In this document: piece after piece, positions 36,320 through 47,261 of the stretch
Position numbering within the stretch: the first letter of the stretch is position 1
Layout: each line of letters opens with the position of its first letter
Assembly (NCBI GenBank): GCA_034226945.1
Contig: CP120462.1
Span: 496,001 to 560,000, forward strand
Source: Picochlorum sp. SENEW3
Lineage: Eukaryota
Length of the DNA: 64,000 nt
Direction of reading: 5' to 3'
Notes under the pieces: model-generated
Database searches by the model: none
What the model saw: only the letters and a program-made list of their open reading frames with translations
What the model was told of the DNA's origin: nothing
Program-made: the position numbers and the translations under genes

Positions 36320-37660
36320 TCATGCCACTCTCTTTGTAAATGTTACTGGTGCTCCGTGGAACACCTGACCCTCTGGATCACTCAGAGCAACCCCAATGCC
36401 ATTCCATGAGGATCCATGGGCCTTGTCACTTCCTGAATAGTACAATCTCCATCGACCTTTGGCCATGGACACAGCCCATGGCGTTCCAACAGAGCCAGAA
36501 TCCCAGCATTCATCATCCTCTGATGCCTCCAGAATTGGTGCATCGCATCTCTTCCAGGACGATATACCATCCTTGGAGACTGCCATACCTATAGATCTGC
36601 GCTTCTTTGCTCTGCAGACTCCCTCATAAAACATAAAATACTGCTTTGTATCAATGTCTCGAACAACGCATCGAGATGCTGCTCCCATGGAGTCAAAGGT
36701 ATCATCGGGCGCCCCTTCAGGAGCACCATCAAACACAGGCCCCCGCTTCTCCCACCTAAATCCATCCGGGGATGTTGCGACACCAACCACATATCGCTTC
36801 TTCTTTTCATCATAACTGTGATAATACATTCTCATATCGCGTGGACCAGCTGCCACAACTTGCGGTGCTCCAATAAATAATGCATCCCATTCACCAGGCT
36901 CTCCAACATCAAACAACGCACCAGTGTGATGATCTCCCTCAATTCTGGCAAAATTCCTACCATCCTGGGACATTGCAAGCCCTGGTCGCGTTCGAAGACC
37001 TTCCCGCTCAGTAGGACACACATCCGTCACTCGTAACCCCTCCGGCACCTGGACCTGTTCAAAGTCCCCTCCAGCATAGAAACACCAATACACCCCTCCA
37101 GGAGAATCCACAGCACTGTTTGACAAAATCTGCACATCAGACACCGACACATGGCACGTATCATGCGTCCACCAATCCTCATTCGGCTGAAGCACTTTTC
37201 CTACATCTTTGGACCGCGATTCCCCTCGAGCGCCTGAAATTGGACCATGTCCTCGCTCCCACTGCAACCCATCTGATGATACAGCAAGCCCGATAGACCC
37301 AGATGATGGAAAGATTCCATCTATATCATGGCATGCCGTACTCTTTCCTGTGTACCACATAAACCATCGCTGCTCATTATCACCAAGATAGTACCGTACG
37401 ATTGGATGGCCAACGCCAGCTTCGTCCCATGCTGCAGGCTCTCCGGTCGAAAACAGCAACCCTGGTTGTTCTGTTCCCACAACAGCACAACTTCTCGATA
37501 CACCCCTTCCGCGGCTTACTGATGCGTATTTTGAGGCATTATTCTTGTTTCTAAAGCGTCTTTGGTGACCAGCGTGCCATGTATGCAAAATCTGAGTTCT
37601 GGAATGACATGTCGCATGTGACAATCCTGACGAATTATACCCAAAACAGGATACCTCCAT
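36320..37660 (-). CDS. Five-bladed beta-propeller glycoside-hydrolase-like protein, probably plastid-targeted
   Basis: Repeated blades (WD...P.V, MxYxG, IGLAxSxDGxxW) and a transit-like N-terminus. Confidence 0.75.
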   Translation of the reverse strand: MEVSCFGYNSSGLSHATCHSRTQILHTWHAGHQRRFRNKNNASKYASVSRGRGVSRSCAVVGTEQPGLLFSTGEPAAWDEAGVGHPIVRYYLGDNEQRWFMWYTGKSTACHDIDGIFPSSGSIGLAVSSDGLQWERGHGPISGARGESRSKDVGKVLQPNEDWWTHDTCHVSVSDVQILSNSAVDSPGGVYWCFYAGGDFEQVQVPEGLRVTDVCPTEREGLRTRPGLAMSQDGRNFARIEGDHHTGALFDVGEPGEWDALFIGAPQVVAAGPRDMRMYYHSYDEKKKRYVVGVATSPDGFRWEKRGPVFDGAPEGAPDDTFDSMGAASRCVVRDIDTKQYFMFYEGVCRAKKRRSIGMAVSKDGISSWKRCDAPILEASEDDECWDSGSVGTPWAVSMAKGRWRLYYSGSDKAHGSSWNGIGVALSDPEGQVFHGAPVTFTKRVA

Positions 37661-37922
37661 CGTATATCTCTTCGACTTGACACTATACCAGTATTTCAAG
37701 CAATACTATCCACTTTACTCTGTGGAAGAGCGGGAAAAGAAGACGCATCTTCTTCCCATACATGGGAACTGGATCACTACAATCGACGTTGCAATACTAC
37801 TAATATGGTTTCAGCACAGAAATATCGATTGCAAAAGTCAGGTTCGATTGTTTGTATCAGACCCATGTGGCCATTAAATAGTATTAAAAATATCTATATA
37901 TTGAGAATATACTGCGTATAAA

Positions 37923-38561: not shown

Positions 38562-41500
38562 CTAAATAGTGAGGAATGATCCGCAGATGGGATCGTCTCT
38601 GTAAATTCCGAATTGCTGTAAACAGATTTCCCACATGCCACTAGGAAGCATGGCAGCTCCTGCAAGGGCTCCAGTGAAACCAGCATTGTTTTCTATTCCC
38701 ACCATGGATGCGTCATTTGTTCGTTCGTCAATATAATAATCGCTTTTGCCAGGACCATGGACCAACGCGCCAGTCAGTTGATATGTGTCTGGGTCGGGAG
38801 ATAGATAGCTTGTTACCCTGTTGCAGACACCTGGGCGCGCTGGGCACGCAGCAGCTCTGTCTTGAGTTCGTTTGGGTGGATTATGTCCTTGTCCTATCAC
38901 CATACTTCGACCTGCATCTCCCATCATGTAGCGAACTTGTGAGAGTCCCCAGCACTTGTATGCTTGTGATTTGGCAGAGTCTTTGTGCTCAATGAGGTCT
39001 GCATACATGAAAGCAGACATGGCAATGTTTGCAGTTGACCCCAAGGGTGCACTGAATGCATTATATGCTCGACCTCGTCGTGTATAGTTTGCTGCATTAT
39101 TTGCACACATCCAGTTGCGGAGGAAGTCTTCGCTGTGCTTGACAAAGGTTGAGTTGCCAGTTTCTTGAGCCATCAAGACATTCAGAGGCCAGAAGACGTT
39201 GTCCCAATCGAATGCGTACTTCCAAGAAGATGCTGATGATTCTTCTTCTAAATACGATATGTAATGAGTATACATATCGTCCAGATATCCCTGCTCTTTT
39301 GTTGCTTTGTATAGCCAGCCTGCTGCCCAGGCAAGGTCATCATACATGCTAGACGAGTTGTACAGCTCGGACAGGTTATGGTCGCCCCTATCGAATCTAA
39401 ACTTGGCACCAACCGAGTCTTCATAAACTTCTTTGGCTTTGTTGAGAAGTTTTTCTGTGTACTCGGGAGTCTCATATCCAGATTCTCTGAATAAGGTGGA
39501 GGCAGCGGCAAGTCCAGCTGACACAGATCCACCCAAGTCAGCACCATAGCCTCCAACGCTTGAGTAGAGGTCTACAGCAAACGCTTCTCTTGTTCTGGCA
39601 TCTTCTGGGCGATACCAGAGCTCTGGTTCGCGTTCTACGTCACCAACCCTTGTGACTAACAGTGATTTATCTTCCAAAGGAATTCTACGATGAACCTTCA
39701 TGAGATAATCTGCTCCAGTTTTGACAGAGTCCATCAAATAGTCTGTTTGGCCAGATATTTCGAATGCATTATGGAATCCCATGAATCCCCAAGCAAGCAC
39801 ACTAGTTGTAAAGGCAATTGGACTGGTGGCTTTGATGTTACCTCCTTTCATACCTGAGACCCAACCCCCTGAAAGGTCCCATGGTGTGGATGTTGCAAGC
39901 TTGAGTTCTATCTCAGACATTGCGAATGGATCTGATAGTCCTGCAAATGGATCAGAGGAGCCACCAAACGGATCTGAGGAGCCACCAAACGGATCTGAGG
40001 AGCCAAATGGATCAGAGGAGCCAAACGGATCAGAGGAGCCAAACGGATCTGACGAACCACCAAACGGATCTGACGAGCCAAATGGATCAGAGGAGCCAAA
40101 TGGATCTGACATGCCACCAAACGGATCAGAGGAGCCAAATGGATCTGACGAGCCACCAAATGGATCTGACGAACCACCAAATGGATCTGAGGAGTCAAAT
40201 GGATCTGACGAGCCACCAAATGGATCAGATGCTCCCAAAGGAGCAAGGTTGCTGAATGGATCAAAGGAAACTGATGAGCTAGATGAATCAGATGAACTGA
40301 ATGGATCAGCAAAAATATCCTGCTCTTGAGAAGCGGTGTCGACTGCAGAGGCAAAAGCATCAGATGCATCACCAGATTGCAACAATTTCCTTCCAAAAGG
40401 CTGACTATATCGTGAACCAAAAGGCTGTACAGCTATGTTGTCAAGGAGAAGCGTATCATTTATGTTCTCTGCCAGATAAACAGCCGATTGTGTTTCACCA
40501 GCAAATGAACCTGTAAACAAAACTGACCAGATTAAACATGCACAGATACACCATGATCTGAAACTGCATTCACGTACTTTGTCTCCAAGAGACCCTGAAG
40601 TCACCAGGCAATTGGCCAACCCGTTGTGTATCAAAAAAGTATAAGCTGTTGCTCAGAGCTTCACTGTAGTCATATGTCCTAGGATACAGGAGCCACACTA
40701 GAACAACACCAAATATGCTCAAAAATGTTGAGATGAACATCATCACACGGCACACCAAGGTGAAGAACAAAGGTGACCTGTAAATAGCGTACTGGATCAA
40801 AAGATAGAGCGGGACCAGGTTGTACGCAATGAAGATGATTGAAATTGCCAAGGGTGTGTCGGTCACCTCTCCTCTAACGTAGGTGATCAAACCAAAAATC
40901 AAAGTGACGATTGAGAAAATGAACCAAATACTTGCCATCCAGAGATCGCGTATTGGTAGATTGTTGAGCTTCTGCAGACCTTTTGCAGTCACCTTGAACA
41001 CAATAGTGCCAGCCAACCACCTTCCTACTGTTGCTCGATACATAGCTTTCAGGAATGCCCACCACAGAATGCTGTTTGCTACAGATGCAAACCACATCGA
41101 CTGCAACAAGAGGATGAATGTTTATATAGATGATTTGTGGAAGCATGAAATACATAAATCACATACCTTTAGATGTCTCAGTGATCTTGTGTAATACATC
41201 ACCATTAACGTTGCTGGGTAGTAAACAGTGACTGCTATGGCACACCATATGTTGATGACAATGGGGAAAACACCAAACCAAACGGTAACCATAGGTACCA
41301 ACATGAGCAAGGGTGTACCTATAAAGGCTGAGAAGTATGACAAGGCCACAGAGCCATAAAGCCAGCGCATGAGGAGGGATAAGCCTTGGGCGCCTTTCCC
41401 AAATGTTGGATTTCTCACCCTGTTGTAGAATAACTGAAAATGTCCCTTGGCCCATCTCGATCTCTGTTGAAAGCAATTTCTCACCTCATCAGGAGCTTCA

Positions 41501-43248
41501 CCAAGAGCCAAATACTCATCGACGTACCGGCACTGCCAATTGCGTCTCTTGAGTTCGATACCAAGGGCAAAATCCTCAGTCAAAGTCCAATCAGGAAACC
41601 ACCCTGCTTCTTGGAACGCTTTTGCTCTCAGCAAAAAATTTGTACCTGTGCACGAAATCAAACCAAGAGCATCATATCCTGGTTGAGTATAGTCCCAGAA
41701 GTGCACATTAGCATGGTTGAAAATGTCCCCATCGTGATTAAGGTTTGAAAATGCCTGTGGGGTCAAGATCATTGCAACATCTTCACCCCCATCCAAAAGT
41801 GGCACTGTTTTGCTGAAGAAATCGGCATTAGGCACCTGATCAGCATCAAAAACACACACAATTTCATTTGATGGAATGTCTAAATCTTCTCCAGGGTAGA
41901 TAAGTCTCATGGCATGATTAATATTGTTAGATTTTCCATTCATCTCTCCCTTAGCCCTCTTTCTGCCACTAATGTAGACAGCATTGTTCATATTCAACGA
42001 TCGAACAAACGACTTCTTCTCTGGATCTTTGCCATCATCGAGAAGATACACTGTCCTTTTGCAATTCACTGGCAATGCAGCAAACATGGCAGCCAGAAAA
42101 GTTTTGGTGACGACATCAAGAGGCTCTTTGTAGCATGGTATCAGAATTCGTATATGATACCGCAGATTTGTCTGCGCTGGAAGGCCATTCAAAGCAGCAG
42201 TGACAGCCTCTGGTACAGGATCTGTCACTTTGAATATCAGGCAAAGACCATATGGCAATACAGCAAAAGCTCCCAAAATCTCAGCCATGAGTACTATAAC
42301 TCCATACCACAAAGAGGAGCCCAAATCAAGAGTCTTTGCGGCACGAATCGACACATAGATGATGAATGCCATGATGTAGAAAATGTAAATGATCATCCCA
42401 GGCCAATTCACTGCAACCTGCTTCTTGTGTGACTTGGGGATTCTTCCATGACACGTCTCTGCTGTCTCCATAGTGTCGTTATCCATATAAAATGTTAGAA
42501 CCTCGTCCCCGACATATTCTGGCTGTGGTAAAAATTGAGCTTTTAAGAGCTCTGTTGTCGCGGTAATCTCAGAATCCTTGATGGAAGAAGCTCCCCCACA
42601 AGACAAGGATGCCTTCTCATCACCAGATTCACTGGCCCCTGAAAAGTCAACCGAGGTTCCCTGAAGGTGGACCTTATCCAAGCCAATAGTGTCATCATTT
42701 TTCGACATCGCGCGAAGCATATCTACGACAGTGCTTGTTAATCTGCGGACATGCTGAATCGGGACCCCTTGATGTGCTGAGAGGTCTGAGCCATTTACTG
42801 ATGGAGTCCAGCTGTCCTTTCCAGCAACAGCCTTGTCTTTTCCTGCACAGCATCATGCATCATACATTCGTCGTTCTTTATTGATGCTTCCGGTGTATTA
42901 TTAAGTGCACATACCTTTATAAGGAGATGACAAAATTTCATCAAGCGAATCCTTCACATTGCTGAGGTGTTCTATCAACTCATCAGAGTCCTCCGAGGGT
43001 GCTTGGCCCATAGATTCACCCACTGATGCATCTACAAGCTTCCTTTCAGGCGTGATAGGAGATCCACTGAGGGATGGCGGGGCCTTTGGCGTGCTGCTAG
43101 ATGGAGCATCTGGAGCTGCACTTGGTGGAGCCTCCGTTGTAGAATCATCTGTTCCTCCATTCTCCACATCAGCATCACTTTCCTCCTTGCCCTGTTTCTT
43201 GGTCCAACTAAGTCTCTTCGACACTATACTCTTCACAGTCGATTTCAT
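38562..43248 (-). CDS. GT2 processive beta-glucan synthase (BcsA/CesA-like) fused to a degenerate GH9 domain, 1493 aa; exons 43248-42915, 42842-41167, 41100-40578, 40510-38562
   Basis: Three canonical GT-AG introns join four listed ORFs in frame (4482 nt). GT2 motifs IPCYKEP, DDG, DADQ, TPQ, TED, QRSRW and FKVTAK. GH9 motifs DYSEAL..FFDTQR.G.LP..V.WR, DDLAWAAGWLYKAT, FDWDN and GALVHGP. Confidence 0.88.
39926..40308 (-). repeat. Coding tandem repeat of 18/21-bp units (SDPFG(G)S)
   Basis: GGATCTGA(C/G)GAGCC(ACC)AAA units on the plus strand; about 18-20 DPF motifs in the translation. Confidence 0.9.
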
Positions 43249-43782: not shown

Positions 43783-45132
43783 TTAGCTACCGCGATCAAT
43801 CCCTCTTTTCGCCAGCAGCGCACTTCCAAAGCTCGCTTCACCCTGAGCAGCCACATACACTCTGGATCCGATGAATTTCTCTCTGAGCTTTGTCCATACT
43901 GGATTCTTCGCCCCACCACCACATGTATATACCTCCTTCACAGGATCAGCCCCCAGCCGCTCCAACAGTCCGTACGCCCTACCCTCAGTCTTGGCCATGG
44001 ATTCCAGAATGCCTTGCAGGAAGACGGCATCATTCTCTGGGCGCGGCTCCATGCAAGGCATAAGATTCGGATCATTCTCTGGAAATCGCTCCCCTTTAGA
44101 TGGCAACACTACATATTCTAGGCCTGTCAGAGTATCAGGATCCATTTCGCCAGTCAATCGCGCCAACTCTGTATCATCAAAGAACTGTCTCAAAACAGCA
44201 CCACCAGTATTTGAAGCTCCACCAACAAGCCACGTATTCCCCAGGCGATGCGAATACACACCATAACGTGCATCGTTGACAGGATTCCGGCTAATAAGCT
44301 TGATTGCAAGTGTACTTCCCAAGGACGTGACAGCTTGGCCAGGCTCATGCACCCCGGAAGCCAGGAAAGCTGCAATACTATCTGTTGTCCCTGCACAAAC
44401 AATGCATTCGGGAGAAATACCGAGTTCTTCTGCAGAACTCTTATCAATCACACCAACTGGGGACCCAGGTGCATGAACATGCTGGGGCAGAATCGCCATA
44501 ATGGCCTCATGATGCATGAGCCATGCAGGATATGCTTCCTCAGCAGGATCAAAGCCCACCTTCAATGCATTATTATAATCTGTGTGTCCAATCTTCCTAT
44601 GAAGCTGAAACGCTACAAAGTCAGACTGATGCATCAATGTATGACGCCTCCCTGAGTCCTCAAGTCCATCCAAAAACGCAAATGCCTTGCACAATGTACT
44701 TGTCGCTGATGTTACTGTGTGCCCTTCTTCAGTGCAGATGGATCGCACCATCTCCTGGTACCGGGCTTCCTGTGCCTCATTATACATTTTCGCTTCTGTA
44801 ATCGGCAACCCATCCTCGTCAACAATAAGAGCAGTACTAGATGTCCCATCCACAGCAATCGCCTGCAGAGGGCCCGAACGAATGCTCCTTAAGAGAGTCT
44901 TGAGAGCACTCTGCCAAGCAGAGGGAGAAGACGCTCCTCCATCATAGGAGGTCCGATATTCCTCCACAATGTCCTCATCCTCATTAATTACAGTACATCG
45001 GGCACCACTTGTGCCATAATCGATGCCTGCGTAATACGCGTGCGTTCTTGAAAAGAAACGTTTCGGGGATTGGCTTGGAGACACGCGTGGCTGACCTCCA
45101 AACCGATCAATTCTTCCCACATGAACATTCAT
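43783..45132 (-). CDS. FGGY-family carbohydrate kinase (D-ribulose kinase / XK-1-like)
   Basis: GIDYGTSGAR, AVDGTSST, GTTDSIAAF, SLGSTLA, GGASNTGG and GGGAKN. Start taken at MNVHV. Confidence 0.9.
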   Translation of the reverse strand: MNVHVGRIDRFGGQPRVSPSQSPKRFFSRTHAYYAGIDYGTSGARCTVINEDEDIVEEYRTSYDGGASSPSAWQSALKTLLRSIRSGPLQAIAVDGTSSTALIVDEDGLPITEAKMYNEAQEARYQEMVRSICTEEGHTVTSATSTLCKAFAFLDGLEDSGRRHTLMHQSDFVAFQLHRKIGHTDYNNALKVGFDPAEEAYPAWLMHHEAIMAILPQHVHAPGSPVGVIDKSSAEELGISPECIVCAGTTDSIAAFLASGVHEPGQAVTSLGSTLAIKLISRNPVNDARYGVYSHRLGNTWLVGGASNTGGAVLRQFFDDTELARLTGEMDPDTLTGLEYVVLPSKGERFPENDPNLMPCMEPRPENDAVFLQGILESMAKTEGRAYGLLERLGADPVKEVYTCGGGAKNPVWTKLREKFIGSRVYVAAQGEASFGSALLAKRGIDRGS

Positions 45133-45224
45133 ACTTGATAATAAAATGGATGTGAAACGTAATAAAAGTATTGAACGTGTACTACAACGGCAAGGTCGAT
45201 TTGAAAACCTGAAATGAAAATTCC

Positions 45225-47261
45225 TTATTTTGCAAGTGGTGGTACTCCGCAGAAGCAGGACCCCAAAAGCTTGGAGAGCCCAGAGCGAGATTCCCGTGCC
45301 TTTTTCCGCGGATGAGACGCCTTGAAGAGCACATCTGGGGATCTGCCAAACTCTTGAGCTTGCATCAAGAGCGCTCTGTGCTGTGCAGCGTCCTCTTTGG
45401 CCTTGTCCAGATGTTTTGTAGCTCTGCAATGCAGAAATGATGTGGTAAGTACCAGGTGGATCATCACGGAATAGAAATACACGTACAACTCATCATAAGT
45501 CATATAATGAAATACATTATGATGCTTAATCGCTCCCTCGCCCCGGGCATGTATTCCAAACACCAGGTCAATCCATGCGTGTATATGGCTAGAGACGTGG
45601 TCAGACTCCAATGCCAGTCTCATCTTTTCCAAAAATTCCTCGATCGATGTTGCCCATGGCGGAAGTATCACTTTTTTCAAGTGTCCAAAATCGCCACCAA
45701 GGGAAATATATTGATTATTTCGCAATATCTGCAGTCCTGCTTGGGGATCATAGAGTTGAGGAATCAGTTCTTTGACATCACTTCCAGATGCAGAGGATAC
45801 TGATGCCCATGCAGCAGGAATAGACCGAAACATTCTATTCGGATGATCAAACGATCCTCCTTGCAGCTTTAACATTAATTTTGGATTCTGTCGTACTGTG
45901 AAGAACACCACAATGCCAGGATTGGAATAATGGCTTCCAAACATCCATGGATCTTCAACATTAGATTCTTTCAGCGCTTGGTACATCTCCAAACCCTGCA
46001 TAGCTTTCTTCTCCGTAAGCGCTGCAATAGGCTTTGATAGATTTCTGTACACATTAGGACTACGCAGGTTAAGGCTATCACTTGTATAATCCGACAAGAC
46101 CCATGGAAATACTGGATACCGATGGATGTTCTTGTAAGACCTTCCAGCAAGGTCATTCAAATACATGAGATACTGGAAATTCGACACAGAATCCTCCAAC
46201 CAAAGCCTCTGAATATGCCCTACATCTTGGATCATTGTATATCGCGCGAATTCCTTGAGACGCCGAACCAGACGCGTTGCATCCTCTTCATGCTCAAACA
46301 CAAAGAAAACAGATGCACGCCTACCAAAGTATATCTCACACGCATTGCAGTCCACGATATAAGGTCTCTTTCTGACAAGTAGAATCTCTGATTTTTTGAT
46401 ACGAACCCGTCCCAGTCTATCGCTGCAGTATGGTCGAAAGACCACCGTATCAGCCCCAATCTCCAGACTGCCACGGAGACTGCAGAATGGATACACCTGA
46501 AAACACTCCATCCTCTCCTTCCCACTCTGCCCAAGGGGCATGGACGATATTCTCGAATTCCTATAAAATTCATCCACAATACTTTCAATTCCTTGCTGGA
46601 CTTGCATCGCTCGCTCTTCCTCATCCTGCTGCTCTTCCTCCATGCCATTAGGCTGATGTGAATGCATGAGTTTGGCCAACTGTTCCACCACAGCATACCA
46701 CGCATCATGCCCCTGATATCGCTTCCTCTCACTCTTTTTCACAAAAATATGAATCATTCCTGGCGATGCTACCCGTATGTTTGCAACAGACCCGGTGGGG
46801 TGGATCTTCCAATACCAATCAAACCCAAGGACCACCTCATGCAACAATATATCCGATCCCAGGCGCTTCATACGACGATGGCTACAGTCCCTATACAATA
46901 AATATCATCACTTAGGGATGCAATCATCCTCTCATGTTAGAAGAAACACAACGCACCGGACATCCCAACGAGTTACCTGCTGATATGGCACCCTATACTG
47001 TACTTTAGACTCCAGTCCAGTCACCACCCGTACGTAGATGTGCTTGGTTCCGACCAAAATCTGCCCCAGCTCTCCATCCTCTGAATCCTTTGACTTTGGT
47101 TTCGAAATTGAGCACTGGATCGCATGTAAGCATTCCTCTCCGTCGGACAATTCTAACAATCCGAGTTCGTCAACGGTCCCTTGTTCCACCTGACAGAGAA
47201 CATCCAGGACGTCAGCATACTCCGTATCGGATGGTCCATACGTCCTGGATCCTTTATCCAT
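45225..47261 (-). CDS. FAN-like PH/GRAM-BEACH protein lacking WD40; intron 46891-46956 and a probable in-frame intron near 45424-45486
   Basis: BEACH motifs SNFQYLMYLNDLAGRSY, YPVFPWVL, GSHYSNPG, DVKELIP and WIDLVFG. Confidence 0.88.

What the first reader, a model, noticed from the sequence alone, without database searches (positions are those of the whole stretch)
38562..43248. Single-chain glucan synthase fused to a GH9 domain (synthase plus KORRIGAN/BcsZ-like module in one protein)
Seen: four ORFs splice in frame into 1493 aa. The GT2 part keeps the full D,DxD,TED,QxxRW set and the FxVTxK gating loop, and is compact like bacterial BcsA. Three hydrophobic segments follow the cytosolic gating loop, so the GH9 domain should lie on the polymer exit side. 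Established: cellulose synthesis uses a separate endoglucanase (plant KORRIGAN GH9, bacterial BcsZ GH8). Inference: a fused wall-glucan (cellulose or mixed-linkage) synthesis machine in a chlorophyte. Similar architectures may already be annotated in other green algae, but I know of no characterisation.
Basis: partly seen in the sequence, partly recalled or inferred. Interest (0 to 1): 0.8.

Follow-up and report, generated by a model that had tools for sequence, protein, structure and literature searches.

The report
Glucan synthase fused to dead cellulase
This green-alga gene really does encode one long membrane protein joining a cellulose-synthase-like enzyme to a cellulase-like outer domain, but that outer domain has lost the residues needed to cut cellulose, and the fusion itself was already reported in related algae in 2012.

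Summary
A minus-strand gene of four exons (43248-38562) gives a 1493-aa protein. It has a GT2 synthase with DDG, DAD, TED, QRSRW and FKVTAK, then three hydrophobic helices, then a GH9 domain. Contigs of three public runs lack exactly the three predicted introns, and one contig joins exons 2, 3 and 4, so this is one transcript.

1. The GT2+GH9 fusion was described for Coccomyxa and Chlorella in 2012 (PMC3446292). It is common in Trebouxiophyceae: 46 of the 49 best long homologues carry both domains.

2. The GH9 module is not KORRIGAN/BcsZ-like in chemistry. Both catalytic Asp residues, the catalytic Glu and the HH of the HHR motif are replaced (S, G, M, QD). Of 48 fused relatives examined, 30 keep none of the three carboxylates.

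3. The GH9 fold is split. Helix 1 follows TM7 directly, then comes a roughly 160-210-aa insert rich in D, F, G and S, with 18 DPF motifs, predicted disordered. The rest of the barrel follows.

Most likely this is a bacterial/tunicate-type beta-glucan synthase whose exit-side GH9 fold has a non-hydrolytic role. The tunicate CesA, with its inactive GH6 domain, is a parallel. It is a new member of a known but uncharacterised family.

The parts
42915..43248 (-). Exon 1 (start codon 43248-43246). It is the first part of a roughly 250-aa N-terminal extension, presumed cytosolic, that matches no Pfam family.
   Evidence: Homologue P0001 starts with a similar MKS... N-terminus. The exon 1-exon 2 junction is seen in contigs of X2, X7 and X8.
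42843..42914 (-). Intron 1 (72 nt, GT..AG)
   Evidence: for the sequence. table 5: skipped in contigs of X2, X7 and X8.
41167..42842 (-). Exon 2. It holds the rest of the N-terminal extension, TM1-TM2 (aa 254-318, 42417-42223), the GT2 catalytic domain (aa 335-577, 42174-41446) with DDG, DAD, TED and QRSRW, and TM3-TM4 (aa 609-661, 41352-41194).
   Evidence: PF13632 at E 3.9e-21. BcsA structures 5ej1/4hg6 at E about 1e-28 over query residues 228-550. for motifs and coordinates.
41101..41166 (-). Intron 2 (66 nt, GT..AG)
   Evidence: table 5 (X2, X7, X8).
40578..41100 (-). Exon 3. It holds the amphipathic helix and the FKVTAK gating loop (40998-40981), TM5-TM7 (aa 720-811, 40953-40678), and GH9 helix 1, which begins at aa 813.
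   Evidence: GH9 profile positions 1-31 match at residues 152-182 of this ORF; in the model of the 79%-identical proxy P0143, helices 52-78, 84-108 and 112-140 are followed by the GH9 helix 147-160.
40511..40577 (-). Intron 3 (67 nt, GT..AG).
   Evidence: table 5: skipped in contigs of X2, X7 and X8. The X5 contig (record 8, 40203-40878) keeps it.
39942..40424 (-). Insert inside the GH9 domain (about aa 874-1034), rich in S, G, D, F and P, with 18 DPF motifs, predicted disordered. The short ordered stretch that follows GH9 helix 1 (aa 845-873, 40425-40510, in exon 4) lies upstream of this part and is not included in it.
   Evidence: 18 DPF at aa 913-1038; 212 aa lie between the WR of helix 1 and the DLSGGW motif; the equivalent stretch in proxy P0143 (residues 206-396) has pLDDT below 50.
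39925..40226 (-). Tandem repeat core of the insert (periods 18, 21 and 39 nt, about 14 copies) encoding (S)SDPFG(G) units. Its length differs between strains in multiples of 3.
   Evidence: tables 4, 5 and 5c: indels of 3, 3, 18 and 3 nt, and a net 63-nt skip.
38634..39941 (-). Main part of the GH9 (alpha/alpha)6 barrel (aa 1035-1470). The catalytic positions are replaced: GGWVSGMKGGN at 39869-39837 in place of GGWYDAGDH, TQDR at 38867-38856 in place of PHHR, and SMVGIE at 38708-38691 in place of NEV....
   Evidence: PF00759 at E 5.5e-71; alignment to 8ihw/3wc3..
38562..38633 (-). C-terminal tail (aa 1471-1493) with two conserved Cys residues, plus the stop codon 38564-38562.
   Evidence: (Cys 1474 and 1487 conserved in 14 of 14 homologues).

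Best explanation
SHOWN. The gene is expressed as one spliced mRNA for a 1493-aa protein with about 7 TM helices. Its N-terminal two thirds are a processive family-2 glycosyltransferase of the bacterial BcsA type, with no PilZ domain and no plant CesA-specific regions. Its C-terminal third is a complete GH9 fold. All three catalytic carboxylates of that fold, and several other near-invariant active-site residues, are replaced. The fold is interrupted after its first helix by a long low-complexity loop rich in DPF motifs. The domain is under purifying selection, and its replacement residues are themselves conserved.

INFERRED. The GT2 domain and the FKVTAK loop face the cytosol, and the polymer leaves through the TM channel. 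It is most likely a beta-1,4-glucan, because the closest solved relatives are cellulose synthases. Three helices follow the gating loop and GH9 helix 1 starts about 3-6 residues after TM7, so the GH9 barrel sits on the outer face next to the channel exit. It can no longer hydrolyse by the GH9 mechanism. It probably acts non-hydrolytically, by receiving, guiding or holding the nascent chain, or by organising neighbouring synthases or wall contacts. The disordered acidic, aromatic loop reaches into the wall space. Tunicate CesA shows the same design with an inactive GH6 domain.
For: One transcript. Three GT..AG introns are absent from contigs of X2, X7 and X8, and X2 record 3 bridges exons 2-4.

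Synthase identity: PF13632 at 3.9e-21; BcsA 5ej1/4hg6 at E about 1e-28; plant CesA only 1.8e-06; all motifs present.

GH9 fold: 5.5e-71; GH9 structures at E 1.7e-57. The model of proxy P0143, 79% identical to the window over the GH9 query, aligns to termite endoglucanase 1ks8 with Z 52.8, rmsd 1.7 A and 431 of 433 residues, over model range 143-827. So helix 1 plus the post-insert part make a whole barrel.

Loss of the catalytic centre:
- the alignment gives D->S, D->G, E->M and HH->QD.
- 79 columns are at least 85% conserved in 101 canonical GH9 domains. The window keeps 54 and changes 25, including the 100%-conserved D, D, H and E. Most replacements (G, R, E, S, G, D, D, E) are fixed in 13-14 of 14 clade members, whereas the positions of the first Asp (T/S/A) and the Glu (M/W/R) vary.
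- of 48 fused relatives, 30 keep none of the three carboxylates, 5 keep one, 8 were incomplete and 5 are canonical.

Selection. Of the 40 listed differences to strain contigs, 28 are synonymous, 9 non-synonymous and 3 non-coding; in the GH9 barrel the split is 15 to 5. All 5 repeat indels or skips are multiples of 3.

Outside location: three hydrophobic segments follow the gating loop. Sequons are conserved in the GH9 part (NSS at 1229 in 13 of 14, NLS at 1223 in 9 of 14, NYT at 1319 in 8 of 14), and there are none in the GT2 core. Six Cys residues are conserved in 13-14 of 14.

Tunicate parallel: PMC7464555, passages read.
Against: No activity, binding, localisation or polymer data exist for any member that I could find.

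The changed columns include residues that I recall as sugar-contacting in GH9 (W->S, R->G, Y->N, H->P/M/S). Glucan binding by the remodelled cleft is therefore not assured.

New conserved acidic residues appear (D of QDR, an N->D change, E of IENNAG). They could in principle form a different active site.

The topology rests on hydropathy, the homology argument and sequons. No topology predictor or experiment was available.

The structure model is of homologue P0143, not of the window protein. No coordinates were available, so the position of the barrel over the channel is inferred from the short TM7-helix 1 linker only.

No single listed contig spans the repeat core 39953-40110, although depth there is not zero in X2.
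Confidence: 0.62

Rival explanations
1. One reading: the GH9 module is an active endo-beta-1,4-glucanase that trims or releases the chain made by the fused synthase, a built-in KORRIGAN or BcsZ.
For: The GH9 fold is complete and well conserved. A minority of fused relatives keep the canonical DAGD, HHR and NEV motifs (P0015, P0158, P0165 and P0248; P0322). So an active fused form probably exists or existed.
Against: In this protein and its whole clade both Asp residues and the Glu are replaced by residues that cannot act as base or acid (S/T/A, G, M/W/R), and a 2-residue insertion sits in the DAGD loop.
Confidence: 0.07
2. Neo-functionalised catalyst: the remodelled cleft uses a new set of conserved acidic residues for a different reaction, such as transglycosylation or cross-linking of the nascent glucan, or action on another wall polymer.
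For: Replacements at formerly invariant positions are themselves fixed in the clade and several are acidic: H->D in QDR (13 of 14), N->D (14 of 14), D->E in IENNAG (14 of 14) and D->E before the lost His (14 of 14), all. Purifying selection is seen.
Against: There is no precedent that I know of in GH9 (recalled). The positions of the old acid and of the first Asp vary within the clade (M/W/R and T/S/A), as expected for loss rather than re-use. The geometry could not be checked because no coordinates were available.
Confidence: 0.12
3. Scaffold only: the GH9 fold and its DPF-rich loop do not touch the nascent chain. They serve to assemble synthases into arrays (terminal complexes) or to tether the enzyme to the wall.
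For: Many putative sugar-contacting residues are changed. A long disordered loop rich in F, D and G, whose length varies between species (120-293 aa), is typical of interaction or tether regions (inference).
Against: The loop is missing in many relatives that still have the dead GH9: P0168 has 18 aa between the WR of helix 1 and the DLxGG motif, and Coccomyxa- and Trebouxia-type proteins have only about 160-176 aa between the gating loop and the first catalytic Asp position. The conserved part is therefore the barrel. Its placement a few residues after TM7 puts it at the channel mouth.
Confidence: 0.18
4. Gene-model artefact: the synthase and the GH9 are two neighbouring genes, or the repeat region is an intron.
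For: ORFs through tandem repeats are often open in several frames, as here. An alternative acceptor at 39941/39940 would also be in frame (sequence).
Against:: the junction 40510|40578 is used in three runs and the X2 contig continues to 40176 inside the insert. No joint removing the repeat was listed. The 93 non-repeat codons 40510-40230 are open, which my arithmetic puts at about 1% by chance. Of 106 long homologues, 47 have both domains, and the close ones have an insert at the same place.
Confidence: 0.03

Closest known systems
Algal GT2-GH9 fused 'cellulose synthase-like' proteins of Trebouxiophyceae (Coccomyxa C-169, Chlorella variabilis; Blanc et al. 2012, PMC3446292)
   Same: The domain order is the same: a GT2 synthase followed by a C-terminal GH9. 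Named homologues at 49-58% identity in the GT2 part come from Chlorella sorokiniana, C. ohadii, Micractinium, Auxenochlorella, Coccomyxa, Trebouxia, Myrmecia, Symbiochloris, Apatococcus, Elliptochloris and Botryococcus. The upstream FGGY-kinase neighbour is the same as in Chlorella, where it is merged into gene models P0010 and P0011.
   Different: The paper predicts cellulase domains. Here the GH9 part lacks the catalytic residues. The DPF-rich insert is confined to the window's clade and the Chlorella/Micractinium group. None of these proteins has been characterised, as far as my searches show.
Tunicate cellulose synthase CesA (GT2 + C-terminal GH6-like domain)
   Same: It is a single-chain eukaryotic synthase of bacterial type with a cellulase fold at the C-terminus whose catalytic Asp is not conserved (PMC7464555, passages read). 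Blanc et al. call the algal GT2 domain highly similar to the tunicate one.
   Different: The hydrolase fold is different (GH6, not GH9), so the fusion is an independent one. No tunicate protein appeared in my searches, so I did not measure the similarity.
Bacterial BcsA with the separate endoglucanase BcsZ (GH8)
   Same: The GT2 core, TED, QxxRW and FxVTxK gating loop are shared. BcsA is the best solved match (E about 1e-28).
   Different: There is no PilZ domain. Three rather than two helices follow the gating loop. The glucanase-fold partner is fused, is GH9 rather than GH8, and is inactive by sequence. That BcsZ is an active periplasmic enzyme is recalled, not tested here.
Plant CesA complex with KORRIGAN (membrane-anchored GH9)
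   Same: A GH9 fold is held at the outer membrane face beside a cellulose synthase. In KORRIGAN, too, the GH9 domain follows a TM helix (recalled).
   Different: The GT2 part is far from plant CesA (E 1.8e-06; PF03552 scores 20.1 bits, below its cut-off of 24.7). KORRIGAN keeps its catalytic residues (recalled). Here they are lost and the two proteins are one chain.
Actinobacterial GT2-GH8 single-chain proteins (about 890 aa; P0092, P0101, P0107, P0109, P0116, P0138)
   Same: They are a BcsA-like GT2 fused to a cellulase-family domain, and they are among the nearest bacterial relatives of the window's GT2 part.
   Different: The fold is GH8, not GH9. They are prokaryotic. Their catalytic residues were not examined.

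Membership tests
Processive GT2 beta-glucan (cellulose) synthase, BcsA/CesA superfamily | GT2 (GT-A) catalytic domain | tested here: met
   PF13632 at 76.2 bits (cut-off 27) and PF13641 at 60.9 bits.
Processive GT2 beta-glucan (cellulose) synthase, BcsA/CesA superfamily | D, DxD, TED and QxxRW motifs | tested here: met
   DDG at 380, DAD at 444, TED at 533, QRSRW at 571-575.
Processive GT2 beta-glucan (cellulose) synthase, BcsA/CesA superfamily | FxVTxK gating loop after an amphipathic helix, followed by TM helices | tested here: met
   FKVTAK at 705-710; in the proxy model, helix 2-32, then a loop, then three long helices.
Processive GT2 beta-glucan (cellulose) synthase, BcsA/CesA superfamily | Product is beta-1,4-glucan made from UDP-glucose | not testable with these tools
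   Only similarity is available: BcsA at E about 1e-28.
Bacterial BcsA proper | C-terminal PilZ domain (c-di-GMP control) | tested here: not met
   no PF07238 match in any exon. The C-terminus is GH9.
Plant CesA/Csl (PF03552) | Match to the plant cellulose synthase profile above its cut-off | tested here: not met
   PF03552 scores 20.1 bits against a cut-off of 24.7; poplar CesA 6wlb reaches only E 1.8e-06, over 130 residues.
GH9 glycoside hydrolases (endoglucanases, including KORRIGAN) | (alpha/alpha)6 GH9 fold | tested here: met
   PF00759 at 240.6 bits. E 1.7e-57 to 8ihw; proxy model against 1ks8 gives Z 52.8 with 431 of 433 residues aligned.
GH9 glycoside hydrolases (endoglucanases, including KORRIGAN) | Catalytic Asp-x-x-Asp (DAGD) base pair | tested here: not met
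   D->S and D->G, with a 2-residue insertion. Both columns are 100% D in 101 canonical domains.
GH9 glycoside hydrolases (endoglucanases, including KORRIGAN) | Catalytic Glu (proton donor, NEV motif) and the HHR motif | tested here: not met
   E->M (the column is 100% E in canonical domains) and HH->QD.
BcsZ-type endoglucanase (GH8) | GH8 fold (PF01270) | tested here: not met
   only PF00759 (GH9) matches.
Trebouxiophyte GT2-GH9 fused synthase family (Blanc et al. 2012) | GT2 synthase and GH9 domain in one polypeptide, with GT2 N-terminal | tested here: met
   (a contig bridges the exons); 16 of 22 hits carry both Pfam domains; 47 of 106 do.
Trebouxiophyte GT2-GH9 fused synthase family (Blanc et al. 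2012) | Groups with the fused algal proteins in a tree or by best hits | tested here: met
   in the GH9 tree the window lies in a 16-tip clade with the Chlorella and Micractinium proteins (support 1.0), within a 23-tip clade in which every tip lacks at least one of the three catalytic carboxylates or could not be scored at all three positions (support 0.93; states). The root is a midpoint root only.

The most novel reading that the evidence does not exclude
Two eukaryotic lineages, tunicates with GH6 and green algae with GH9, independently fused a cellulase fold to the exit side of a bacterial-type cellulose synthase and then disabled its hydrolytic centre while keeping the fold under selection. 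This would mean the cellulase fold has a general, non-hydrolytic job in cellulose synthesis: receiving, aligning or releasing the nascent chain. That would bear on the long-open question of why cellulose synthesis needs a 'cellulase' at all. In this clade the added DPF-rich disordered loop would be a further wall-side or partner-binding device.
Probability: 0.3. Interest if true: 0.7.

Novelty: new member of a known kind. Interest (0 to 1): 0.45.

Why it matters
Why cellulose synthases need an accompanying endoglucanase (BcsZ, KORRIGAN) is still debated. This natural single-chain version is expressed, keeps the cellulase fold under selection and has lost every catalytic carboxylate. It argues that at least part of that requirement can be met without hydrolysis.

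The family also contains canonical-looking fused members, so active and inactive forms can be compared directly. For annotation, dozens of these proteins are named 'cellulase' or 'six-hairpin glycosidase' in public records, which is probably wrong for most of them. The fusion itself is not new.

Tried and rejected
RNA evidence. One search listed no holder on record as RNA; the runs used are 'RNA?' by guess. Their contigs lack the introns, which is what I rely on. No single listed contig spans the repeat core 39953-40110. X7 has no cover in the bins from 39866 to 40213, and X8 none in the bin 40040-40213.

Own genome. None is held, so I could not ask whether the alga also has a separate, intact GH9 or further copies of this gene.

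Earlier scan notes. Nothing was found.

AP-2/Eps15 reading of the DPF repeats. The repeat hit a sea-urchin Eps15-like protein (P0021), and DPF motifs bind the AP-2 appendage in endocytic proteins (recalled). I rejected this because the insert lies inside a domain that three helices, conserved sequons and conserved Cys residues place outside the cytosol. I take the hit as low-complexity resemblance.

Alternative long intron 40577-39941. It is in frame, but it is contradicted by the junction seen.

Literature. Searches found no paper in the held library that notes the loss of catalytic residues in algal GT2-fused GH9 domains or that characterises such a protein. I read passages of PMC3797821, PMC4981690, PMC5977491 and PMC10762512; none mentions the fusion. 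I did not open the supplements of PMC3446292 (Figure S6, Table S6), and they may list the proteins.

Tunicate CesA. It did not appear, so I did not test Blanc et al.'s statement of high similarity.

Jobs not run. I did not run complex prediction or a second structure job. Without coordinates they would not show where the barrel sits relative to the channel.


Full report
**Observation**

The region holds one minus-strand gene. Stop-to-stop ORFs and the sequence give four exons: 43248-42915, 42842-41167, 41100-40578 and 40510-38565, with the stop at 38564-38562. They are separated by GT..AG introns of 72, 66 and 67 nt. Joined in a script, they give a 4482-nt CDS and a 1493-aa protein with a single terminal stop.

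Pfam finds a GT2 domain in exon 2 (PF13632, E 3.9e-21). It finds GH9 (PF00759) in two pieces: profile positions 1-31 at the very end of exon 3, and positions 42-444 in exon 4 (E 5.5e-71). There are seven hydrophobic segments, three of them after the gating loop.

**Is it one transcript?**

One search for public runs listed 18 holders, none on record as RNA. I laid four runs from four studies.

- Contigs of X2, X7 and X8 skip exactly 40511-40577, 41101-41166 and 42843-42914. The ends read CT..AC on the plus strand, which is GT..AG on the gene's strand.
- X5 behaves as DNA: its contigs run through introns 2 and 3 and into intron 1.
- X2 record 3 (2378 nt) covers 40176-40508, 40576-41100 and 41167-42588. 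It therefore joins the synthase exon, the TM exon and the start of the GH9 exon.

These runs differ from the window by 1-2%, so they are related strains.

One caveat remains. No single listed contig crosses the repeat core 39953-40110, although X2 has depth there.

**The insert in the GH9 domain**

Between GH9 helix 1 (which starts at aa 813, a few residues after TM7) and the DLSGGW motif (aa 1056) lie 212 residues. Their composition is S 24%, G 12%, D 12%, F 11% and P 10%, with 18 DPF motifs. The core is a tandem repeat at 39925-40226 with periods of 18, 21 and 39 nt.

Several things show that the insert is coding.

- The splice junction at 40510|40578 is the one used, and the X2 contig continues into the insert.
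- The 93 non-repetitive codons 40510-40230 are open, which my arithmetic puts at about 1% by chance.
- All five length differences between strains are multiples of three: 3, 3, 18 and 3 nt, and a net 63.
- Of the 20 relatives examined, 11 give inserts of 120-293 aa at the same place, with 5-14 DPF motifs. P0168 has only 18 aa there. For 8 the pattern I used found no match.

An AlphaFold model of P0143 was made with a 78-row alignment. P0143 is a homologue, 79% identical to the window over the GH9 query, and it begins at the exon-3 equivalent. The model has mean pLDDT 79.4. It shows three long helices, then a confident GH9 helix and about 45 ordered residues, then pLDDT below 50 for residues 206-231 and 237-396, then a barrel at pLDDT above 90.

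That model aligns to the termite endoglucanase 1ks8 with Z 52.8, rmsd 1.7 A and 431 of 433 residues, over model range 143-827. The fold is therefore complete, and the insert is a disordered excursion from it. This is a model of a proxy, not of the window protein.

**The GH9 module has lost its catalytic centre**

Aligned by HMMER to solved GH9 enzymes (8ihw and 3wc3, E about 2e-57), the window reads GGWVSGMKGGNIK where the enzymes read GGWYD--AGDHVK. It reads TQDR for PHHR, and ASMVGIE for RNEVAND. Both Asp residues of the DAGD motif and the Glu of NEV are gone. Their roles as catalytic base pair and proton donor are recalled from the GH9 literature, not taken from a call.

In a MAFFT alignment of 141 near-full-length domains, 101 have D, D and E. 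In those 101, 79 columns are at least 85% conserved. The window keeps 54 of them and changes 25. The changed ones include the four 100%-conserved polar columns (D, D, a His and E), both His of HHR, a Trp, an Arg and a Tyr.

Most replacements are fixed in the 14 members of the window's group. The positions of the first Asp (T/S/A) and of the Glu (M/W/R) vary. This looks like loss of the old chemistry with retention, and some re-shaping, of the domain.

The domain is not decaying. Of the 40 best-supported differences to strain contigs listed (93 more were not shown), 3 are non-coding, 28 synonymous and 9 non-synonymous. In the barrel the split is 15 to 5.

**How general is this?**

- The GH9-exon search for longer proteins gave 22 hits, and 16 carry both GT2 and GH9 Pfam domains.
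- The GT2-exon search for longer proteins gave 106 hits, and 47 carry both, including 46 of the best 49. Named ones come from Chlorella, Micractinium, Auxenochlorella, Coccomyxa, Trebouxia, Myrmecia, Symbiochloris, Apatococcus, Elliptochloris and Botryococcus.
- I examined 48 proteins in hand that have GT2 motifs upstream of a GH9 match, chosen by regular expression and pairwise alignment. Thirty keep none of the three carboxylates. Five keep one, and some of those may be alignment shifts. Eight were incomplete at a position. Five are canonical, of which P0219 (601 aa) is probably a false positive of the expression.
- P0322 is also canonical, but it failed the GT2 expression.
- A FastTree of the GH9 domains, midpoint-rooted, puts the window in a 16-tip clade with the Chlorella and Micractinium proteins (support 1.0). 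That clade lies inside a 23-tip clade in which every tip lacks at least one of the three carboxylates or could not be scored at all three positions (support 0.93; states). The canonical fused trio P0015, P0158 and P0248 is its sister with only 0.57 support.

An active fused ancestor followed by loss is therefore plausible but not shown.

**The synthase part**

The best solved relatives are bacterial BcsA (5ej1 and 4hg6, E about 1e-28 over residues 228-550 of exon 2). Plant CesA and CslF6 reach only about 1e-06. There is no PilZ domain, and the plant profile stays below its cut-off. The nearest bacterial sequences are roughly 510-aa actinobacterial GT2 proteins, some of them fused to GH8. I cannot determine the polymer. 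Cellulose is the default by similarity.

**Topology**

The GT2 domain and the FKVTAK loop must be cytosolic. This follows from established knowledge of BcsA and CesA. Three helices follow the loop, which puts the GH9 domain outside.

Supporting points:
- The flanking charges fit the positive-inside rule (read from the sequence).
- The GH9 part carries conserved N-x-S/T sequons: 1229 in 13 of 14 homologues, 1223 in 9 of 14 and 1319 in 8 of 14. The GT2 core has none.
- Six Cys residues are conserved in 13-14 of 14.

No topology program or experiment was available.

**What is known**

Blanc et al. [quoted passage not shown] The architecture is therefore in print.

For tunicates, PMC7464555 (passages) reports that the catalytic Asp of GH6 is not conserved in the CesA-fused GH6 domain, which may have a new function.

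Six searches found no paper in the held library that notes the same loss in the algal GH9 fusions or that characterises one.

**Mechanism**

My best reading (confidence about 0.6) is as follows. This is a plasma-membrane, bacterial/tunicate-type beta-glucan synthase. Its product leaves the channel next to a GH9 barrel that is anchored by its own first helix to TM7. The barrel no longer cuts. It acts as a chain-receiving, chain-guiding or complex-organising module, and in this clade a disordered acidic, aromatic loop extends outward from beside the former active-site loop.

The rivals are an active KORRIGAN-like glucanase (0.07), a re-built active site with new chemistry (0.12), a pure scaffold or tether (0.18) and a gene-model artefact (0.03).

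**Verdict**

The fusion is a new member of a known but uncharacterised family. What I could not find in print is that its 'cellulase' is a pseudo-enzyme split by a disordered repeat, and that this is the rule among its relatives.

Noticed in passing
window 43783-45489 (-): The gene directly upstream on the same strand is an FGGY-family sugar kinase (PF02782 at E 2.4e-11). Public gene models of Chlorella sorokiniana and C. ohadii (P0010, P0011) merge such a kinase domain with the GT2-GH9 protein. This suggests a conserved neighbourhood and over-merged models there.
   Followed up: partly
proteins P0092, P0101, P0107, P0109, P0116, P0138: These actinobacterial proteins of about 890 aa combine a BcsA-like GT2 with a GH8 domain (PF01270). 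They are a single-chain BcsA-BcsZ-like fusion in bacteria, among the nearest prokaryotic relatives of the window's GT2 part.
   Followed up: no
protein P0327: A 1968-aa chytrid protein (Chytridiales sp. JEL 0842) carries GH9, GT2/cellulose-synthase, chitin-synthase (PF03142, PF01644) and polysaccharide-deacetylase (PF01522) domains. Its GH9 reads D, S .. E at the catalytic positions.
   Followed up: no
window 39925-40226 versus runs X2 and X5: The SDPFG repeat differs in copy number between closely related strains: a net loss of 63 nt in X2 and a gain of 18 nt in X5. Every difference is in frame.
   Followed up: partly
window 36320-37705 (-): This 461-aa open frame just downstream has repeated '...DG..W.....' blocks that look like a beta-propeller glycosidase-like protein. 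It has no Pfam match at E <= 1e-4.
   Followed up: no
proteins P0358, P0362: Nannochloris sp. 'desiccata' has GT2 cellulose-synthase-like proteins fused to ankyrin repeats instead of GH9. This is a different accessory domain on a related synthase.
   Followed up: no
window aa 1-253 of the protein (43248-42418): The long N-terminal extension has no Pfam family. It contains blocks that recur in the printed N-terminal sequences of homologues P0001-P0003, P0005 and P0009, seen by eye (for example around HVRRLT..VVDML and LLKAQF.PQPEY). It may be regulatory.
   Followed up: no
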